Shown: piece after piece, positions 21,602 through 29,500 of the stretch
How the letters are laid out: each line of letters begins with the position of its first letter
Numbering within the stretch: position 1 is the first letter of the stretch
Source of the DNA: Escherichia coli
Lineage (GTDB): Bacteria > Pseudomonadota > Gammaproteobacteria > Enterobacterales > Enterobacteriaceae
NCBI RefSeq assembly: GCF_003334315.1
Contig: NZ_QOWR01000050.1
Strand: one strand, 5' to 3'
DNA: 34,162 nt
The notes under the pieces: model-generated
What the model saw: only the letters and a program-made list of their open reading frames with translations
What the model was told of the DNA's origin: nothing
Database searches by the model: none
Program-made: the position numbers and the translations under genes

Positions 21602-24237
21602 TGTTTTTCCTCACACTCTTTTCCTTGCGGACAGTCATTTCCCGGCAGACGTGCGTTCTGCTCCAGCCATGCCTGGAGATTATCGCCAAAGCGTAAACTG
21701 CGCCACAGCGTAAAAATATTCTCTTCATGATGGTAATTAAGGTTTACCGTACCGCTTTTACCATCAACGCGACTGGTACCTGTAATGTTGGCCTGCATGG
21801 TTAATAAACCGAGATTATCTAAATTAATTTTTGTCGATGAACGGCTAATTTCCATATAGCGCAACCAGTTAATTGCTGAACCCGCAGTCATATTGTCTTT
21901 TACCACCGCATCCGCAGTGTCTTTATCCAGTCGCAATGTCATCGGCCCGCTATTCGCCAGCCAGCCATCTTTCACAATCCATTTTTCATTGTTCAGCCAT
22001 AACGGCAGTGCACCACTAAATGCCCCGGACATGGCGAATTGTTTCGGATTGACGGCGCTAACCAGTTCGCTGGATGAGAGATTATTCAGCCGCAACAGCG
22101 CCGGGTCATGTTGCGGCATACGTAATTGTTTCATCAGTACGTTACCGCCTAACACATCGACGCTAACATCAGTCAACAGCAAGGGTTCTTCTTCAGTCCA
22201 CGGATAACGCCCTTGCAAATCAGCCGTAATATTTTTCGCTGTCACCAGATTAATCACTTCGGCAATTCGCAACGTAACGGGGCCGCGAGTCCCCAGATGC
22301 CAGGCTCCATCGGCAAAACGGAAAGGCAGGACAAAATCGACACCGTTAACCTGATTATCTGGCATCCAGGCACTACCGCCTTTCAACACGCCGTGTCCTC
22401 CCGCGCGGAATCCTTGTTCAGGCGCAGCAGAAAATGCAACCTGAGCATACAGTTCACCATCGCGTAAGTTCATCTTCCAGTCGGGTGGCACCAGCGGCTG
22501 GAATACGGTCAGTGATTGTTTAGGCCACCAGGCGTTACCGCGCAGACGAATACCGTCCCAGCGACCATTTACCCGAACCGGGCCAATCTCACCAGCATGT
22601 AAATCGCCTTTAAAGAGGAAATAGGTAGGATCGCGCCCATCGACGCTAAATTTTAAGGTTGATGGCGGTAACACACTGCCGCCAGTGAACAGCGTTTGCC
22701 CGGCGTCCAGTGACAGCGCGCCGCTAAAGGAGGGATGCTGTGCGTCACGTACCCAGACGATGGGCTTGTCGAGAATTAATCGCGGCTTTTCTACCGTCAT
22801 CGTACCGTATTGTAACTGGTCGAAACCGGTGGAGAGATCGGTCAGCGTAATCGTGCTGTCATGCCACTCACCTTTTCCTGCGACATCCCAGGTGGCATTC
22901 ATCGGTGTAAAACTCCCTTTTCCCCAGTAGCGCCACTGCCAGCGGCCAGCGTCAGGGAGAAAATCATTCGCCAGCCCATCCATATGCAGCACGAAATCGC
23001 CCAGTTCATTTTCATGCGCCTGCAAGATGGCCTGCAAACGTCCGTCAACACCACGTTGGGTGACTTTTACACCCGCTAAAGGCCAGCGGATTTCATCGAT
23101 GTCCAGCGAATCGATGACTCTTCCCTTTGAACGAAGTAACGCGCCTGGCTCAAAGGTCAGCGTTGGGTCAGACAGACTTCCACTTAGCTGCGCAGGTAAA
23201 CGGGCATATAAAATGAGGTCCGCCTGTTTCGCTTCACCGGTCAGCTGCAGAGGCAGCTGACTGTTATCCATGCTTAATTTTCCTGGGCCAAAATTAAGCA
23301 CCGCGTTGCCCTTACCCGCTTGCCCCTGGGTCAGCACACTCAGTCGTCCGCTGACCAGAGCGTTCTCAAGCCCTGCCTGCCAGTTGTCGACTTTGACACC
23401 CAGTCGGCCACTCAAAGGAAAACCTGCATACGGCCAGCTCCAGCGACCATCGCTTACGGCCAATTGTTGACGAGTAATTTGCCACGGCAAATCGAGCAAC
23501 GGATCGCCGTTATCCCGTGCCAGCACGATCAATTGCCCGCTATTTTCCTGCCAGTCCAGCTCGGCATCCACCAGTGACGGTTCCTGCGGCAAGTTTAACG
23601 TCGCAGTAGCATGCCCACTTACAGGAAGTCCATCCGGCACGAGCGGCATAGCAAATTCCCCCACCAGTTTTACCGGCGGCTGATTTTCAAACGCGACGAC
23701 ATCCAGTTCGCTGACTGTAAGTTGTTGCCCTTTCAGCTGGCCTTGAAATTTAACTTTTTCGCCCTGATAACGCAGTTGCTGGATATCAGAGGTTAATGCG
23801 AGAGAGAGTTTTCCCTGCCATTCCTGCCAGGGAGAAAAAATCAGTTTATCGATATTGATCCAGGTGTTAGGCAGCATGGCCTGCCACTGCGCGAGTGTTT
23901 TTGGAGCGGCTGGCGATTGCTCCGTCTGCGGCAATTTCGCCAGACAAGCAGAATCAAGTTCTACCGTGCCGACGTTCAATAACCAGCGGCTGGGATGTGA
24001 AAGGCTGGCGTTGGTGATATGCGCAAGCTGACAATCTCCCACCAGATAACGGAGATCGGGAATGATTAAACCTTTACGCGTAATGCGTGGGCTTTCATCT
24101 AATGCAATACGTGTCCCGAGCGGTAGCCAGATGCCCGCCAGCGTGGGAACCCACAGCCCGAGCGTCATCAGCAGCGTCAACGGCACAAGAATAATCAGTA
24201 ATAACAGCGCGAGAACGGCTTTATATTTACCCAGCAT
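21598..24237 (-). CDS. ydbH: AsmA-like inner-membrane-anchored protein YdbH, 879 aa
   Basis: 879-aa ORF with an N-terminal transmembrane anchor (MLGKYKAVLALLLLIILVPLTLLMTLGLWVP) and a long beta-rich periplasmic part; first gene of ydbH-ynbE-ydbL. Confidence 0.85.
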   Translation of the reverse strand: MLGKYKAVLALLLLIILVPLTLLMTLGLWVPTLAGIWLPLGTRIALDESPRITRKGLIIPDLRYLVGDCQLAHITNASLSHPSRWLLNVGTVELDSACLAKLPQTEQSPAAPKTLAQWQAMLPNTWINIDKLIFSPWQEWQGKLSLALTSDIQQLRYQGEKVKFQGQLKGQQLTVSELDVVAFENQPPVKLVGEFAMPLVPDGLPVSGHATATLNLPQEPSLVDAELDWQENSGQLIVLARDNGDPLLDLPWQITRQQLAVSDGRWSWPYAGFPLSGRLGVKVDNWQAGLENALVSGRLSVLTQGQAGKGNAVLNFGPGKLSMDNSQLPLQLTGEAKQADLILYARLPAQLSGSLSDPTLTFEPGALLRSKGRVIDSLDIDEIRWPLAGVKVTQRGVDGRLQAILQAHENELGDFVLHMDGLANDFLPDAGRWQWRYWGKGSFTPMNATWDVAGKGEWHDSTITLTDLSTGFDQLQYGTMTVEKPRLILDKPIVWVRDAQHPSFSGALSLDAGQTLFTGGSVLPPSTLKFSVDGRDPTYFLFKGDLHAGEIGPVRVNGRWDGIRLRGNAWWPKQSLTVFQPLVPPDWKMNLRDGELYAQVAFSAAPEQGFRAGGHGVLKGGSAWMPDNQVNGVDFVLPFRFADGAWHLGTRGPVTLRIAEVINLVTAKNITADLQGRYPWTEEEPLLLTDVSVDVLGGNVLMKQLRMPQHDPALLRLNNLSSSELVSAVNPKQFAMSGAFSGALPLWLNNEKWIVKDGWLANSGPMTLRLDKDTADAVVKDNMTAGSAINWLRYMEISRSSTKINLDNLGLLTMQANITGTSRVDGKSGTVNLNYHHEENIFTLWRSLRFGDNLQAWLEQNARLPGNDCPQGKECEEKQ

Positions 24238-24444
24238 GGGTAGTTAATATCCTGATTTAGCGAAAAATTAAGCATTCAATACGGGTATTGTGGCATGTTT
24301 AACCGTTCAGTTGAAGGTTGCGCCTACACTAAGCATAGTTGTTGATGAATTTTTCAATATCGCCATAGCTTTCAATTAAATTTGAAATTTTGTAAAATAT
24401 TTTTAGTAGCTTAAATGTGATTCAACATCACTGGAGAAAGTCTT

Positions 24445-25434
24445 ATGAAACTCGCCGTTTATAGCACAAAACAGTACGACAAGAAGTACCTGCAACAGGT
24501 GAACGAGTCCTTTGGCTTTGAGCTGGAATTTTTTGACTTTCTGCTGACGGAAAAAACCGCTAAAACTGCCAATGGCTGCGAAGCGGTATGTATTTTCGTA
24601 AACGATGACGGCAGCCGCCCGGTGCTGGAAGAGCTGAAAAAGCACGGCGTTAAATATATCGCCCTGCGCTGTGCCGGTTTCAATAACGTCGACCTTGACG
24701 CGGCAAAAGAACTGGGGCTGAAAGTAGTCCGTGTTCCAGCCTATGATCCAGAGGCCGTTGCTGAACACGCCATCGGTATGATGATGACGCTGAACCGCCG
24801 TATTCACCGCGCGTATCAGCGTACCCGTGATGCTAACTTCTCTCTGGAAGGTCTGACCGGCTTTACTATGTATGGCAAAACGGCAGGCGTTATCGGTACC
24901 GGTAAAATCGGTGTGGCGATGCTGCGCATTCTGAAAGGTTTTGGTATGCGTCTGCTGGCGTTCGATCCGTATCCAAGTGCAGCGGCGCTGGAACTCGGTG
25001 TGGAGTATGTCGATCTGCCAACCCTGTTCTCTGAATCAGACGTTATCTCTCTGCACTGCCCGCTGACACCGGAAAACTATCATCTGTTGAACGAAGCCGC
25101 CTTCGAACAGATGAAAAATGGCGTGATGATCGTCAATACCAGTCGCGGTGCATTGATTGATTCTCAGGCAGCAATTGAAGCGCTGAAAAATCAGAAAATT
25201 GGTTCGTTGGGTATGGACGTGTATGAGAACGAACGCGATCTATTCTTTGAAGATAAATCCAACGACGTGATCCAGGATGACGTATTCCGTCGCCTGTCTG
25301 CCTGCCACAACGTGCTGTTTACCGGGCACCAGGCATTCCTGACAGCAGAAGCTCTGACCAGTATTTCTCAGACTACGCTGCAAAACTTAAGCAATCTGGA
25401 AAAAGGCGAAACCTGCCCGAACGAACTGGTTTAA
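24445..25434 (+). CDS. ldhA: Fermentative NAD-dependent D-lactate dehydrogenase LdhA, 329 aa
   Basis: 329 aa starting MKLAVYSTKQYDKKYLQQVNESFGFELEFFDF…, with the NAD-binding motif GVIGTGKIG of the D-isomer-specific 2-hydroxyacid dehydrogenase family. Confidence 0.95.
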   Translation: MKLAVYSTKQYDKKYLQQVNESFGFELEFFDFLLTEKTAKTANGCEAVCIFVNDDGSRPVLEELKKHGVKYIALRCAGFNNVDLDAAKELGLKVVRVPAYDPEAVAEHAIGMMMTLNRRIHRAYQRTRDANFSLEGLTGFTMYGKTAGVIGTGKIGVAMLRILKGFGMRLLAFDPYPSAAALELGVEYVDLPTLFSESDVISLHCPLTPENYHLLNEAAFEQMKNGVMIVNTSRGALIDSQAAIEALKNQKIGSLGMDVYENERDLFFEDKSNDVIQDDVFRRLSACHNVLFTGHQAFLTAEALTSISQTTLQNLSNLEKGETCPNELV

Positions 25435-25441
25435 TCTTGCC

Positions 25442-25464
25442 GCTCCCCTGCATTCCAGGGGAGC
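25442..25464 (+). terminator. Hairpin immediately downstream of ldhA (9-bp perfect stem, weak U-tract)
   Basis: GCTCCCCTG (25442-25450) / CAGGGGAGC (25456-25464), 5-nt loop, followed by TGATTC. Confidence 0.45.
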
Positions 25465-25544
25465 TGATTCAGATAATCCCCAATGACCTTTCATCCTCTA
25501 TTCTTAAAATAGTCCTGAGTCAGAAACTGTAATTGAGAACCACA

Positions 25545-25967
25545 ATGAAGAAAGTAGCCGCGTTTGTTGCGCTAAGCCTGCTGATGGCGGGATGTGTAAG
25601 TAATGACAAAATTGCTGTTACGCCAGAACAGCTACAGCATCATCGCTTTGTGCTGGAAAGCGTAAACGGTAAGCCCGTGACCAGCGATAAAAATCCGCCA
25701 GAAATCAGCTTTGGTGAAAAAATGATGATTTCCGGCAGCATGTGTAACCGCTTTAGCGGTGAAGGCAAACTGTCTAATGGTGAACTGACAGCCAAAGGGC
25801 TGGCAATGACCCGTATGATGTGCGCTAACCCGCAGCTTAATGAACTCGATAACACCATTAGCGAAATGCTGAAAGAAGGTGCACAAGTGGATCTGACCGC
25901 GAACCAGTTAACGCTGGCGACCGCAAAACAGACATTAACTTATAAGCTGGCGGATTTAATGAATTAA
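25545..25967 (+). CDS. hslJ: Heat-shock lipoprotein HslJ, 140 aa
   Basis: MKKVAAFVALSLLMAGCVSN lipoprotein signal; the track ORF starts at a TTG 12 nt upstream. Confidence 0.85.
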   Translation: MKKVAAFVALSLLMAGCVSNDKIAVTPEQLQHHRFVLESVNGKPVTSDKNPPEISFGEKMMISGSMCNRFSGEGKLSNGELTAKGLAMTRMMCANPQLNELDNTISEMLKEGAQVDLTANQLTLATAKQTLTYKLADLMN

Positions 25968-26230
25968 TAGCTGCCACAGCTCCCGGCGGCAAGTGACTGT
26001 TCGCTACAGCGTTTGCCGTTGGGTAATGCACACATCCCAATCGCCGTACCATCCAGTTGACGGGCAACAGAAAGCGAACCGCCGATCATTGCACAATTTG
26101 CTTCTCCACTACTGGACATCGACGCTTTTAAACCTGGCGCTACGTGCGCGGCAGTCGCCTGCTGAACAGGTTCACTACTACACGCCGACAACAATAAAGC
26201 GGCACACCCTACCCAAAACGCTGCTCGCAT
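25964..26230 (-). CDS. ydbJ: Small DUF333-type lipoprotein YdbJ, 88 aa
   Basis: 88-aa ORF with lipobox LLSACSS (MRAAFWVGCAALLLSACSSEP…); convergent with hslJ and sharing its stop (TTAA). Confidence 0.7.
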   Translation of the reverse strand: MRAAFWVGCAALLLSACSSEPVQQATAAHVAPGLKASMSSSGEANCAMIGGSLSVARQLDGTAIGMCALPNGKRCSEQSLAAGSCGSY

Positions 26231-26503
26231 CTTTTCTTCCTCTGATCTTCAAGCCAAACGACACCGCCATAAATAATAGGCAGCACAGAGGGCGGCGTCG
26301 AGAGCTGTCCTGCGCGTTGCCCCGCATTTTTACTTTTTTATGGCTATTTTTTTGCCCTCTGTTTGATCAAAACATTCATTACGCTGATGTGGGGGACACA
26401 AAAGCGAAAATGCAGAAGAAAGCCATTTGCTAAAATTGAAAGATTACTACTGGGCGCGCAGCAATTTCGTGCGCCCCTCATTTGCGCAATGTAAGGGTGT
26501 CAT

Positions 26504-29500
26504 ATGATTACTATTGACGGTAATGGCGCGGTTGCTTCGGTCGCATTTCGCACCAGTGAAGTTATCGCCATCTACCCTATTACCCCCAGTTCCACGATGG
26601 CAGAACAGGCTGATGCCTGGGCCGGAAACGGCTTAAAGAACGTTTGGGGAGACACACCACGCGTGGTTGAAATGCAGTCGGAAGCGGGTGCTATCGCTAC
26701 CGTGCATGGCGCTTTGCAGACGGGTGCCCTTTCAACATCGTTTACGTCATCGCAGGGTTTGCTGCTGATGATCCCGACGCTGTACAAACTGGCAGGCGAA
26801 CTAACACCGTTTGTCCTGCATGTAGCGGCACGTACCGTTGCCACACATGCACTCTCTATTTTTGGCGATCATTCCGACGTTATGGCGGTGCGCCAGACGG
26901 GTTGCGCGATGTTGTGTGCAGCAAACGTCCAGGAAGCGCAAGACTTTGCTCTCATTTCGCAAATCGCGACGCTGAAAAGCCGCGTGCCATTTATTCATTT
27001 CTTTGATGGTTTCCGCACGTCCCACGAAATCAATAAAATTGTCCCGCTGGCCGATGACACGATTCTTGATCTCATGCCGCAGGTCGAAATTGATGCTCAT
27101 CGCGCCCGGGCACTCAACCCGGAACATCCGGTGATCCGCGGTACGTCCGCCAATCCTGACACTTATTTCCAGTCTCGCGAAGCCACCAACCCATGGTACA
27201 ACGCGGTCTATGACCATGTTGAACAGGCGATGAATGATTTCTCTGCCGCGACAGGTCGTCAGTATCAGCCGTTTGAATATTACGGGCATCCGCAAGCGGA
27301 ACGGGTGATTATCCTGATGGGCTCTGCCATTGGCACCTGTGAAGAAGTGGTTGATGAATTGCTAACCCGTGGCGAAAAAGTTGGCGTGCTGAAAGTTCGC
27401 CTGTACCGCCCCTTCTCCGCTAAACATTTACTGCAAGCTCTGCCGGGATCCGTACGCAGCGTGGCGGTACTGGACAGAACCAAAGAACCCGGTGCCCAGG
27501 CAGAACCGCTCTATCTGGATGTAATGACCGCACTGGCAGAAGCCTTTAATAATGGCGAGCGCGAAACTCTGCCCCGTGTCATTGGTGGGCGCTATGGTCT
27601 TTCATCCAAAGAATTTGGCCCAGACTGTGTACTGGCGGTATTTGCCGAGCTCAACGCGGCTAAACCGAAAGCGCGCTTTACGGTTGGTATTTACGATGAT
27701 GTGACCAATCTGTCACTGCCGTTGCCGGAAAACACCCTGCCAAACTCGGCGAAACTGGAAGCCTTGTTTTATGGCCTTGGTAGTGATGGCAGCGTTTCCG
27801 CGACCAAAAACAATATCAAGATTATCGGTAATTCCACGCCGTGGTACGCACAGGGCTATTTTGTTTACGACTCCAAAAAGGCGGGCGGCCTGACGGTTTC
27901 TCACCTTCGAGTGAGCGAACAGCCGATTCGTTCCGCTTATCTCATTTCCCAGGCTGATTTTGTTGGCTGCCACCAGTTGCAGTTTATCGATAAATATCAG
28001 ATGGCTGAGCGTTTAAAACCTGGCGGCATTTTCCTGCTCAACACGCCGTACAGCGCAGATGAAGTGTGGTCGCGCTTGCCGCAAGAAGTTCAGGCCGTGT
28101 TAAACCAGAAAAAAGCGCGCTTCTATGTGATTAACGCGGCGAAAATCGCCCGCGAATGTGGCCTGGCGGCCCGTATTAATACCGTCATGCAGATGGCTTT
28201 TTTCCATCTGACGCAAATTCTGCCTGGCGATAGCGCCCTCGCAGAATTGCAGGGTGCGATTGCCAAAAGTTACAGTAGCAAAGGCCAGGATCTGGTGGAA
28301 CGCAACTGGCAGGCTCTGGCGCTGGCGCGTGAATCCGTAGAAGAAGTTCCGTTGCAACCGGTAAATCCGCACAGCGCCAATCGACCGCCAGTGGTTTCCG
28401 ATGCCGCCCCTGATTTCGTGAAAACCGTAACCGCTGCGATGCTCGCCGGGCTTGGTGACGCCCTCCCCGTTTCGGCGCTGCCGCCAGACGGCACCTGGCC
28501 GATGGGCACTACGCGCTGGGAAAAACGCAATATCGCCGAAGAGATCCCCATCTGGAAAGAGGAACTCTGTACCCAATGTAACCACTGCGTTGCCGCTTGC
28601 CCACACTCAGCTATTCGCGCAAAAGTGGTGCCGCCTGAAGCGATGGAAAACGCCCCTGCCAGCCTGCATTCGCTGGATGTGAAATCGCGTGATATGCGCG
28701 GGCAGAAATATGTCTTGCAGGTGGCACCGGAAGATTGCACCGGTTGTAACCTGTGCGTCGAAGTTTGCCCGGCGAAAGACCGTCAGAATCCAGAGATTAA
28801 AGCCATCAATATGATGTCTCGCCTGGAACATGTCGAAGAAGAGAAAATCAATTACGATTTCTTCCTCAACCTGCCAGAAATCGACCGTAGCAAACTGGAA
28901 CGTATTGATATTCGTACATCGCAGCTGATTACACCGCTGTTTGAATATTCAGGTGCTTGCTCCGGTTGTGGCGAGACGCCGTATATTAAATTACTGACTC
29001 AGCTCTATGGCGACCGGATGTTGATCGCTAACGCCACTGGCTGTTCTTCAATTTATGGCGGTAACCTGCCCTCTACACCGTATACCACCGATGCCAACGG
29101 TCGTGGGCCGGCATGGGCGAACTCTCTATTTGAAGATAATGCCGAATTTGGCCTTGGTTTCCGCCTGACGGTCGATCAACACCGTGTCCGCGTGCTGCGT
29201 CTGCTGGATCAATTTGCCGATAAAATCCCGGCGGAATTACTGACGGCGTTGAAATCAGACGCCACGCCAGAGGTTCGTCGTGAACAGGTTGCAGCTTTAC
29301 GCCAGCAACTCAACGATGTTGCCGAAGCACATGAACTGCTACGTGATGCAGATGCACTGGTGGAAAAATCAATCTGGCTGATTGGTGGTGATGGCTGGGC
29401 TTACGATATCGGCTTTGGCGGTCTGGATCATGTATTGAGTTTGACGGAAAACGTCAACATTCTGGTGCTGGATACGCAATGCTATTCCAACACCGGTGGT

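What the first reader, a model, noticed from the sequence alone, without database searches (positions are those of the whole stretch)
25964..25967. Convergent hslJ and ydbJ share their stop codons in a 4-bp TTAA palindrome
The hslJ TAA (25965-25967) and the ydbJ TAA on the opposite strand (25964-25966) overlap, so the two transcripts must overlap at their 3' ends, allowing antisense interference or transcriptional collision between a heat-shock lipoprotein gene and its neighbour.
Basis: seen in the sequence. Interest (0 to 1): 0.2.

Follow-up and report, generated by a model that had tools for sequence, protein, structure and literature searches.

The report
Ordinary stop-codon overlap of hslJ and ydbJ
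Two real, convergent E. coli lipoprotein genes share their stop codons in a TTAA, which is the commonest and already catalogued kind of tail-to-tail gene overlap; the only mildly new point is a conserved RNA hairpin inside ydbJ, just past the hslJ stop codon.

Summary
hslJ (25545-25967, +) ends ATG AAT TAA, and ydbJ (25964-26230, -) ends with TAA read from 25966 to 25964. RefSeq annotates the same 4-nt overlap. ydbJ is a real gene: DUF333 domain, dN/dS 0.01-0.05, invariant C-terminal Tyr, invariant promoter hexamers.

The arrangement is ordinary. Four-nucleotide CTAA/TTAA/CTAG/TTAG overlaps are the modal convergent overlap, and E. coli has 58 convergent overlaps. In 79 Enterobacteriaceae genomes the junction drifts from -7 to +86 nt. 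TTAA occurs only in Escherichia, and two Raoultella species show a parallel CTAG.

The inferred transcript overlap is already published: ydbJ-hslJ is one of 165 convergent "excludons" in MG1655. An RNA antisense to the ydbJ 5' end and a Rho-termination region on the ydbJ strand are also reported. No regulatory effect has been shown.

With no spacer, 3'-end signals must lie inside the partner gene. I found an 18-bp hairpin (25982-26023) inside ydbJ codons 70-83, starting 14 nt after the hslJ stop. It is more stable than all 3000 synonymous recodings, is kept in 67 of 79 genomes, and is stronger on the hslJ strand. It has no U-tract. It is probably a 3'-end barrier or pause site, but this is untested.

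Low interest; already known.

The parts
25964..25967 (.). TTAA tetramer holding both stop codons (hslJ TAA 25965-25967 on +; ydbJ TAA 25966..25964 on -)
   Evidence: Read directly. ORF ends. Same overlap in RefSeq annotation.
25545..25967 (+). hslJ CDS, 140-aa lipoprotein with a META domain
   Evidence: ORF (annotated ATG at 25545). Pfam META E 2e-25. NCBIfam equivalog NF007766, 260 bits against a cut-off of 168. PDB 2KTS E 1e-73.
25964..26230 (-). ydbJ CDS, 88-aa DUF333 lipoprotein (signal peptide ending LLSAC)
   Evidence: ORF. Pfam DUF333 E 1.4e-13. 78-99% identity across genera, with Y88 invariant. dN/dS 0.01-0.05 with dS 0.44 (against E. albertii) to 2.4.
25982..26023 (+). 18-bp hairpin (4 G.U pairs, -25 kcal/mol) on the hslJ-sense strand. 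It is embedded in ydbJ codons 70-83 and starts 14 nt after the hslJ stop. No U-tract follows.
   Evidence: Folds. 0 of 3000 synonymous recodings are as stable. It is the strongest window in both genes. 67 of 79 genomes have z<-2. 87.9% of cells are paired against 27-48% in slid controls. It is more stable on the hslJ-sense strand in 69 of 79 genomes. Stem codons are synonymously conserved and loop codons are free.
25961..25992 (-). Weak terminator-like site on the ydbJ-sense strand: a 7-bp stem (25992..25971) followed by CUAUUAAUUC, which contains the TTAA
   Evidence: Consensus scan only. The number of such sites in the region equals the shuffle expectation. The fold of this strand is not better than shuffles (z +0.22).
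26273..26301 (-). ydbJ promoter: -35 TCGACG, 17-nt spacer, -10 TATTAT
   Evidence: Scan. Both hexamer blocks (CGTCGAGAG and ATAATAGGCA on +) are invariant in 16 genera. Published sigma-S ChIP-seq and SELEX peaks and a cited ydbJ TSS lie in this intergenic region.
26168..26288 (+). C-rich, G-poor stretch on the hslJ-sense strand (C/G up to 3.0), antisense to the ydbJ 5' end. Candidate Rho-loading region. It coincides with the published Hfq aptamer / 'ydbJ antisense RNA'.
   Evidence: Composition. Lorenz 2010 aptamer at 1439032-1439135 (U00096.2), which maps to window ~26177-26280 using my inferred offset of 1976.

Best explanation
The TTAA is a real but unselected by-product of a very tightly packed tail-to-tail junction between two genuine lipoprotein genes. 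The hslJ/ydbJ junction has been squeezed to between -7 and +13 nt in nearly all Enterobacteriaceae. Small indels and stop-codon shifts move it about, and Escherichia happens to sit at -4, where TAA on both strands fits into TTAA. There is therefore no intergenic room for a terminator, so each mRNA must end inside the other gene and the two transcripts overlap whenever both promoters fire. For hslJ, the likely 3'-end element is an 18-bp hairpin written into the synonymous sites of ydbJ codons 70-83, 14 nt past the hslJ stop. It lacks a U-tract. I therefore infer that it acts as an exonuclease barrier and/or polymerase pause site rather than a classical intrinsic terminator. Residual read-through would run antisense across ydbJ into a C-rich stretch where Rho can load. 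ydbJ transcripts have at best a weak hairpin plus an AU-rich tail around the TTAA, and read-through on that strand is ended by Rho near the 3' end of ldhA. Shown: the overlap, the reality of both genes, the lability of the spacing, and the conservation and strand bias of the hairpin. Taken from the literature: overlapping transcription, the antisense RNA, and the Rho region. Inferred: what the hairpin does and where the mRNAs actually end.
For: Overlap and annotation. Gene reality. hslJ lies convergent to ydbJ in 79 of 79 usable loci, with spacings -7 (7 loci), -4 (7), 0 (24), 1-13 (37), 43 (2), 74 and 86 (one each). TTAA occurs only in Escherichia spp. and CTAG arose independently in Raoultella ornithinolytica/planticola. 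The 4-nt convergent overlap is modal, and terminators of such genes must sit in the partner's CDS (PMC2174442). No canonical terminator is present: searches find only shuffle-level hits, and Rfam finds nothing. Hairpin: -25.0 kcal/mol against a recoding null of -9.4 +/- 3.7, 0 of 3000 as stable. Apart from the two windows that overlap the hairpin itself, no window in either gene scores below z -2.1. Median z is -3.6 and 67 of 79 genomes have z<-2, although dS between genera is >1. The result holds with a uniform codon null and is stronger on the hslJ-sense strand in 69 of 79 genomes. Rare GGA/GGG at Gly83 (59 of 74) and CTT at Leu80 (56 of 74) pair only or best on the hslJ-sense strand, while loop codons 75-77 vary freely. 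Transcript data: excludon listing, antisense-ydbJ RNA/Hfq aptamer, and a Rho region at 1441889(+) with downstream reads 17 rising to 69 under bicyclomycin.
Against: No mapped RNA 3' end supports the hairpin. Adams et al. curated no Term-seq 3' end anywhere in 1440900-1441499, though low expression could explain that. Covariation is weak: column shuffles give 87.2% paired against 87.9% observed, and only 3 pairs change on both sides. The support is therefore conserved codon choice, not compensatory change. The hairpin is lost in Kluyvera, Pseudocitrobacter, two Raoultella species and two other genomes, with no obvious replacement, so it is dispensable there. The published antisense RNA over the ydbJ 5' end shows that the hairpin does not stop all transcription. 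The only Rho region on the hslJ strand (1441748) lies upstream of hslJ and more likely reflects ldhA read-through. My codon-usage table and the U00096.2-to-.3 offset (1976) are from memory.
Confidence: 0.6

Rival explanations
1. The pair is a functional convergent excludon. Overlapping transcription gives reciprocal repression, either by head-on RNA polymerase collision or by RNase III cleavage of the sense/antisense duplex. Induction of hslJ would lower ydbJ and vice versa, and the tight junction is maintained for that purpose.
For: ydbJ-hslJ is listed in the MG1655 'excludome'. That paper reports higher synteny for excludon pairs in general. Convergent adjacency is conserved in 79 of 79 loci. 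A hairpin that can form on both strands (z -3.5 and -2.2) resembles the pause element needed for positioned head-on collisions (bioRxiv 2022.10.23.513370). hslJ-strand RNA reaches the ydbJ 5' end.
Against: There is no locus-specific measurement of reciprocal expression, dsRNA or RNase III products. The listing rests on a coverage threshold only, and a pair whose CDS overlap meets it almost automatically once both genes pass the coverage threshold. The spacing is not conserved (-7 to +86). Some genomes carry a long GC-rich spacer (L065, L075), which argues against a need for overlap. Both genes appear weakly expressed (for Salmonella hslJ; no curated 3' ends).
Confidence: 0.2
2. This is pure neutral compaction with no dedicated 3'-end element. 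The hairpin signal reflects constraints on the ydbJ mRNA or its translation (for example a rare-codon cluster or a sense-strand 3' stem-loop), not on the hslJ transcript. Both mRNAs simply end by Rho or by decay.
For: The sense-strand fold is also better than recodings (2.8% of the null; median z -2.2). True covariation is weak. The hairpin is lost in 12 of 79 genomes. No 3' end is mapped there. Rho regions are reported on both strands nearby.
Against: The hslJ-sense fold is stronger in 69 of 79 genomes (Wilcoxon p 5e-12, not corrected for phylogeny). Codon choices such as GGA at Gly83 and GCC at Ala82 give G.U pairs only on the hslJ-sense strand and A.C mismatches on the ydbJ-sense strand. 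The hairpin sits 14 nt after the hslJ stop, just outside the footprint of a terminating ribosome, whereas on the ydbJ mRNA it lies inside the translated region.
Confidence: 0.17
3. The overlap is an annotation artefact: ydbJ (or its last codons) is not a real coding sequence.
For: ydbJ is short (88 aa), has no NCBIfam model and no solved structure, and is variously named 'putative hemolysin'.
Against: Pfam DUF333 E 1.4e-13. 242 homologues, most of the best 120 listed being 88 aa long. The C-terminal Tyr is invariant and is followed by a stop in every genome. dN/dS is 0.01-0.05 at saturated dS. The promoter hexamers are invariant. A TSS and sigma-S binding are published.
Confidence: 0.01

Closest known systems
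4-nt convergent (tail-to-tail) gene overlaps sharing stop codons (CTAA/TTAA/CTAG/TTAG class; Lillo & Krakauer 2007, PMC2174442)
   Same: Two convergent genes whose stop codons sit in one tetramer. This is the modal length for convergent overlaps. E. coli has 58 convergent overlaps, and any terminator must lie inside the partner's CDS.
   Different: Nothing essential. This is a plain member of the class. The cross-species series (-7 to +86 nt) shows the drift that the class is thought to come from.
Convergent excludons (ExcludonFinder, Sanmartin et al. 2025, PMC12288877)
   Same: Neighbouring opposite-strand genes with overlapping transcription. This very pair is in their Table 1.
   Different: The defining functional outcome (mutually exclusive expression, RNase III processing) has not been shown for this pair. 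Here the overlap includes coding sequence, not only UTRs.
Bidirectional terminators of convergent gene pairs (Ju et al. 2019; Wang et al. bioRxiv 2022.10.23.513370)
   Same: A stem-loop between convergent genes that does not look like an intrinsic terminator and is proposed to pause converging polymerases. The 25982-26023 hairpin can form on both strands.
   Different: Here the hairpin is inside a coding sequence (ydbJ codons 70-83) rather than in an intergenic gap, and it is clearly stronger on one strand. No 3' ends are mapped. Rho-sensitive read-through is reported nearby, whereas that class is described as Rho-independent.
3' stem-loops that protect Rho-terminated transcripts from 3'-5' exonucleases (Dar & Sorek 2018, PMC6061677; REP-type stabilisers). 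Cited partly from my own knowledge and from the summary in PMC7815308.
   Same: A stable hairpin without a U-tract shortly after a stop codon, followed by a C-rich, G-poor stretch downstream.
   Different: Function is not demonstrated here. The hairpin is encoded in the partner's synonymous sites.

Membership tests
4-nt convergent stop-stop overlap | Two ORFs on opposite strands, tail to tail, whose stop codons fall within one of CTAA/TTAA/CTAG/TTAG | tested here: met
   TTAA at 25964-25967. ORF ends. Annotation.
4-nt convergent stop-stop overlap | Both ORFs are genuine protein-coding genes in the stated frames | tested here: met
   Pfam hits. HslJ equivalog and PDB 2KTS. ydbJ dN/dS 0.01-0.05 and invariant C-terminus.
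Convergent excludon | Transcripts of the two genes overlap in vivo | not testable with these tools
   Taken from the literature only: listed in >=50% of 58 RNA-seq samples, and antisense-ydbJ RNA detected by RT-PCR.
Convergent excludon | Mutually exclusive / reciprocal expression, RNase III-dependent processing of the duplex | not testable with these tools
   No locus-specific data found. The supplements of PMC12288877 are not held.
Intrinsic (Rho-independent) terminator | GC-rich stem-loop | tested here: met
   18-bp stem at 25982-26023, -25 kcal/mol.
Intrinsic (Rho-independent) terminator | U-rich tract immediately 3' of the stem | tested here: not met
   On the hslJ-sense strand the tail is UAAUGCACACAUCC, and there is no U-tract in any of 79 genomes. 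The scan does not call it. On the ydbJ-sense strand only a weak 7-bp stem plus CUAUUAAUUC is found, at shuffle-level frequency.
Bidirectional terminator of convergent pairs (Ju et al. 2019) | Stem-loop located between the two genes and able to form in both transcripts | tested here: inconclusive
   The hairpin forms on both strands (z -3.5 and -2.2), but it lies within the ydbJ CDS, not between the genes.
Bidirectional terminator of convergent pairs (Ju et al. 2019) | Mapped 3' ends of both transcripts flanking the stem-loop; Rho independence | not testable with these tools
   The SEnd-seq paper and its data are not held. The Adams Term-seq lists have no 3' end here.
Rho-dependent termination | C-rich, G-poor untranslated RNA downstream of the stop codon | tested here: met
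   hslJ-sense offsets 200-320 have C/G 2.6-3.0. ydbJ-sense offsets 141-260 and 341-440 have C/G 1.4-1.85.
Rho-dependent termination | Read-through increases when Rho is inhibited | not testable with these tools
   Literature: 1441889(+) has Rho score 4.2, p 1.5e-6, which supports it for the ydbJ strand. On the hslJ strand the only region (1441748) lies upstream of hslJ.

The most novel reading that the evidence does not exclude
The hairpin written into the synonymous sites of ydbJ codons 70-83 is a coding-sequence-embedded bidirectional pause/termination element. It would set the 3' ends of both convergent mRNAs and couple hslJ and ydbJ expression reciprocally. The C-terminal codons of a conserved lipoprotein gene would then be under dual protein and RNA selection across Enterobacteriaceae.
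Probability: 0.25. Interest if true: 0.4.

Novelty: already known. Interest (0 to 1): 0.15.

Why it matters
As stated, the finding matters little. The overlap is in the public annotation, belongs to the commonest class of convergent overlap, and the transcript overlap of this exact pair is already catalogued. It is a clean textbook example of how a tail-to-tail junction drifts (-7 to +86 nt) while both protein ends stay fixed. It is also an example of a gene whose synonymous sites appear to carry a 3'-end signal for its neighbour. If the embedded hairpin were shown to define the hslJ 3' end, it would add a well-conserved case to the small set of terminator or stabiliser elements that lie inside a convergent partner's coding sequence. 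It would also warn against treating synonymous changes in ydbJ as neutral.

Tried and rejected
Rfam scan of 24000-27500 at E<=1 found no family.

Consensus terminator scans found only shuffle-level hits and nothing canonical at the junction.

I looked for mapped 3' ends. The Adams 2021 supplements have no entry for hslJ, ydbJ or coordinates 14409xx-14414xx. The Dar & Sorek and ExcludonFinder supplements are not held. Ju et al. 2019 is not held.

A hairpin plus U-runs at 26279-26353 on the hslJ strand looked like a terminator in front of ydbK. The 16-genus alignment shows that the conserved parts are the ydbJ -35/-10 hexamers and an A/T tract upstream of them, while the stem is not conserved. 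I therefore dropped it as a terminator.

I tested whether the embedded hairpin follows automatically from the amino-acid sequence. It does not.

I tested for true covariation. It is weak.

I searched for replacement hairpins in genomes that lost it and found none convincing; the method is crude.

I checked whether the IS1 insertion in strain EH10-18-47 hit the junction. It lies between ldhA and hslJ instead.

I considered that ydbJ might be a mis-annotation and rejected this.

Full report
**Observation.** The window around the finding reads ...GCG GAT TTA ATG AAT TAA TAG CTG CC.... hslJ (annotated ATG at 25545) ends AAT TAA with its stop at 25965-25967. On the minus strand the 88-codon ydbJ ORF (26230 down to 25964) ends TAT TAA with its stop at 25966..25964. 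RefSeq annotates the same overlap in a 100%-identical K-12-type strain and in MG1655 (ydbJ 1441058-1441324 +, hslJ 1441321-1441743 -). The window is the reverse complement of MG1655, with g = 1467288 - w. The locus is in 5413 of 5426 complete E. coli genomes. The 81 nt around the junction are >=99% identical in 4644 of these and 95-99% identical in the other 769.

**Are both genes real?**
- HslJ matches Pfam META (E 2e-25), the NCBIfam HslJ equivalog (260 bits against a cut-off of 168) and the solved structure 2KTS.
- YdbJ matches Pfam DUF333 (E 1.4e-13) and has a lipoprotein-type N-terminus (LLSAC). It has no NCBIfam model or solved relative.
- YdbJ has 242 homologues; most of the best 120 listed are 88 aa long and 78-99% identical across many enterobacterial genera. 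The last residue, Tyr88, is invariant.
- Against seven other species, dN/dS is 0.01-0.05, with dS 0.44 against E. albertii and 1.2-2.4 against the other genera; dS could not be computed for an eighth genome, Kluyvera.
- The ydbJ promoter hexamers found by the scan (-35 TCGACG, 17 nt, -10 TATTAT; 26301..26273) sit in two blocks that are invariant in 16 genera.
- The literature reports sigma-S binding in this intergenic region and a ydbJ TSS (PMC4447067; PMC5493296).

**Is the overlap special?** No.
- Lillo & Krakauer (PMC2174442) show that 4 nt is the modal convergent overlap, because CTAA, TTAA, CTAG and TTAG hold a stop on each strand. They count 58 convergent overlaps in E. coli.
- I fetched 80 species-level loci with a YdbJ profile and located both stops. 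hslJ lies convergent and directly downstream of ydbJ in all 79 usable loci.
- The distance between the CDS ends varies: -7 (7 loci; Phytobacter/Kosakonia, TTACTGA), -4 (7 loci), 0 (24 loci; Enterobacter, Lelliottia, Leclercia, TGATTA), 1-13 (37 loci; Citrobacter mostly 13), 43 (two Salmonella subspecies), and 74 and 86 (one locus each).
- The -4 state occurs as TTAA in the Escherichia-type loci: E. albertii, E. whittamii, two unnamed Escherichia species, and one 413-bp contig deposited under a Bacillaceae name that looks like E. coli contamination. It occurs independently as CTAG in Raoultella ornithinolytica and R. planticola.
- The YdbJ C-terminus never moves.
- The simplest reading (inference) is that an anciently compact junction wanders by small indels and stop shifts. 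For example, deleting 4 nt from a gap-0 junction such as TAC TAA TTA GTT CAT gives the Escherichia form with both proteins unchanged.

**Consequence: where do the transcripts end?** With no spacer, any 3'-end signal must lie inside the partner gene. Consensus scans find nothing canonical. There is only a weak 7-bp stem plus CUAUUAAUUC on the ydbJ strand across the TTAA, at a frequency expected from shuffles. Rfam finds nothing.

Folding the hslJ-sense RNA shows an 18-bp hairpin at 25982-26023 (4 G.U pairs, -25 kcal/mol), starting 14 nt after the hslJ stop. It is made of ydbJ codons 70-83 (PNGKRCSEQSLAAG). The evidence on this hairpin is as follows.
- **Not a by-product of the protein sequence.** 3000 synonymous recodings weighted by E. 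coli codon usage give -9.4 +/- 3.7 kcal/mol, and none reaches -25. A uniform-codon null gives the same answer.
- **Strongest signal in both genes.** In a sliding 14-codon scan of both genes on both strands, apart from the two windows that overlap the hairpin (z about -2.5), no window falls below z = -2.1.
- **Kept across genera.** Across 79 genomes the median z is -3.6 and 67 have z < -2, even though synonymous sites are saturated between genera.
- **Pairing.** On the alignment, 87.9% of cells pair, against 27-48% when partners are slid.
- **Stem versus loop.** Stem codons are synonymously conserved, often as rare codons: GGC at Gly72 in 65 of 74, CTT at Leu80 in 56 of 74, GCC at Ala81 in 62 of 72, GGA/GGG at Gly83 in 59 of 74. 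Loop codons 75-77 vary freely.
- **Strand bias.** The fold is more stable on the hslJ-sense strand in 69 of 79 genomes, because several pairs are G.U there and A.C on the ydbJ strand.
- **Weaknesses.** Real covariation is slight: shuffled columns give 87.2% paired, and only three pairs change on both sides. The genomes are not independent. The hairpin is lost in Kluyvera, Pseudocitrobacter, two Raoultella species and two other genomes, without an evident substitute. No genome has a U-tract after it, so it is not a classical intrinsic terminator.

**Published transcript evidence.**
- ExcludonFinder (PMC12288877) lists ydbJ-hslJ among 165 convergent pairs with overlapping RNA-seq coverage in at least half of 58 MG1655 samples.
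- Lorenz et al. (PMC2887942) selected an Hfq-binding RNA 'antisense to ydbJ' at 1439032-1439135 (U00096.2) and detected it by strand-specific RT-PCR. With an offset of 1976 (my inference) this is window ~26177-26280. That places it on the hslJ strand, 210-313 nt past the hslJ stop and upstream of the ydbK promoter. At least some hslJ-strand transcription therefore crosses all of ydbJ.
- That stretch is C-rich and G-poor (C/G up to 3.0), which makes it a plausible Rho-loading site.
- Adams et al. (PMC7815308, supp. 2; method) report a Rho-termination region on the ydbJ strand at 1441889, antisense to the ldhA 3' end. Downstream reads rise from 17 to 69 with bicyclomycin (score 4.2). This fits ydbJ-strand RNA running antisense through hslJ until Rho stops it.
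- Adams et al. also report a region at 1441748 on the hslJ strand, just upstream of hslJ (score 2.6). This more likely marks Rho-limited read-through from ldhA.
- Their curated Term-seq lists contain no 3' end between 1440900 and 1441499. The actual mRNA ends remain unmapped.

**Most likely mechanism.** The TTAA itself does nothing. It marks a junction so compact that the two transcription units must interpenetrate. I propose, at moderate confidence, that the embedded hairpin serves the hslJ transcript as a barrier to 3'-5' exonucleases and/or as a polymerase pause site. Read-through would be removed by Rho further on. ydbJ would rely on a weak hairpin with an AU-rich tail and on Rho.

There are three rivals.
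- A true excludon with reciprocal repression. This is plausible, and the hairpin could be the pause element that positions head-on collisions. It is untested, and the non-conserved spacing, including 74-86 nt GC-rich spacers in two genomes, argues against it.
- Neutral compaction, with the hairpin reflecting constraints on the ydbJ mRNA. The strand bias argues against this.
- An annotation artefact. This is excluded.

**Comparison with known systems and verdict.** The feature is a plain member of the 4-nt convergent-overlap class, and the pair is already catalogued as an excludon. The inference of interference is unproven here. The heat-shock angle is weak: hslJ is described as CysB-repressed, and in Salmonella it lacks an RpoH site. 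The embedded hairpin is, as far as the papers I could search show, not described. It is at most a new member of known kinds: terminators or stabilisers inside a convergent partner's CDS, and bidirectional terminator elements. Interest is low.

Noticed in passing
L004 (NZ_VLXZ01000060.1, 413 bp): A 413-bp contig deposited as Alkalicoccobacillus porphyridii carries the E. coli ydbJ/hslJ junction at 98-100% protein identity, including the TTAA. This is almost certainly E. coli contamination in that assembly.
   Followed up: no
L083:340-1037 (E. coli EH10-18-47); corresponds to window ~25440-25540: An IS1A element is inserted between ldhA and hslJ, that is, in the hslJ upstream region, in one human isolate. 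hslJ and ydbJ are intact. This is a natural test of hslJ promoter disruption.
   Followed up: partly
L064 and L066, junction at ~2764-2767: Raoultella ornithinolytica and R. planticola have an independent 4-nt stop-stop overlap of the same two genes, built on CTAG (TAG on both strands) instead of TTAA.
   Followed up: yes
window 26396-26420 (+), ydbJ-ydbK intergenic region: The block GGGACACAAAAGCGAAAATG is conserved across most genera, upstream of ydbK and about 85-110 nt before its ATG. It is probably part of the ydbK promoter or a regulator-binding site (ydbK is reported as SoxS- and sigma-S-dependent).
   Followed up: no
window 26186-26224 (-), ydbJ codons 3-15: Synonymous variation is unusually low in the ydbJ signal-peptide codons (TTT in 68 of 68, GGG in 58 of 74, TGT in 66 of 71, TTA in 56 of 73). 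This region overlaps the published Hfq aptamer / antisense RNA. The cause could be translation-initiation constraints or an antisense-strand element.
   Followed up: no
window 25437-25465 (+) and ~25540: The stem-loop after ldhA (GCTCCCCTGCATTCCAGGGGAGC) has no U-tract. Adams et al. place a Rho-termination region at 1441748(-), which is window ~25540, just before the hslJ ATG. This suggests that ldhA read-through into hslJ is limited by Rho.
   Followed up: partly
L065:2768-2841 and L075:2768-2853: The two genomes with long ydbJ-hslJ spacers (74 and 86 nt) carry GC-rich palindromes there (for example CTGCGGGCATCGTGCCCGCAG). These may be REP-like or bidirectional-terminator inserts.
   Followed up: no
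E. coli genome collection: Five copies of this chromosomal locus are recorded on replicons labelled as plasmids. In strain 11A20CPO008 (H20) the match starts at query base 7 and only ydbJ is annotated, so hslJ may be truncated there.
   Followed up: no
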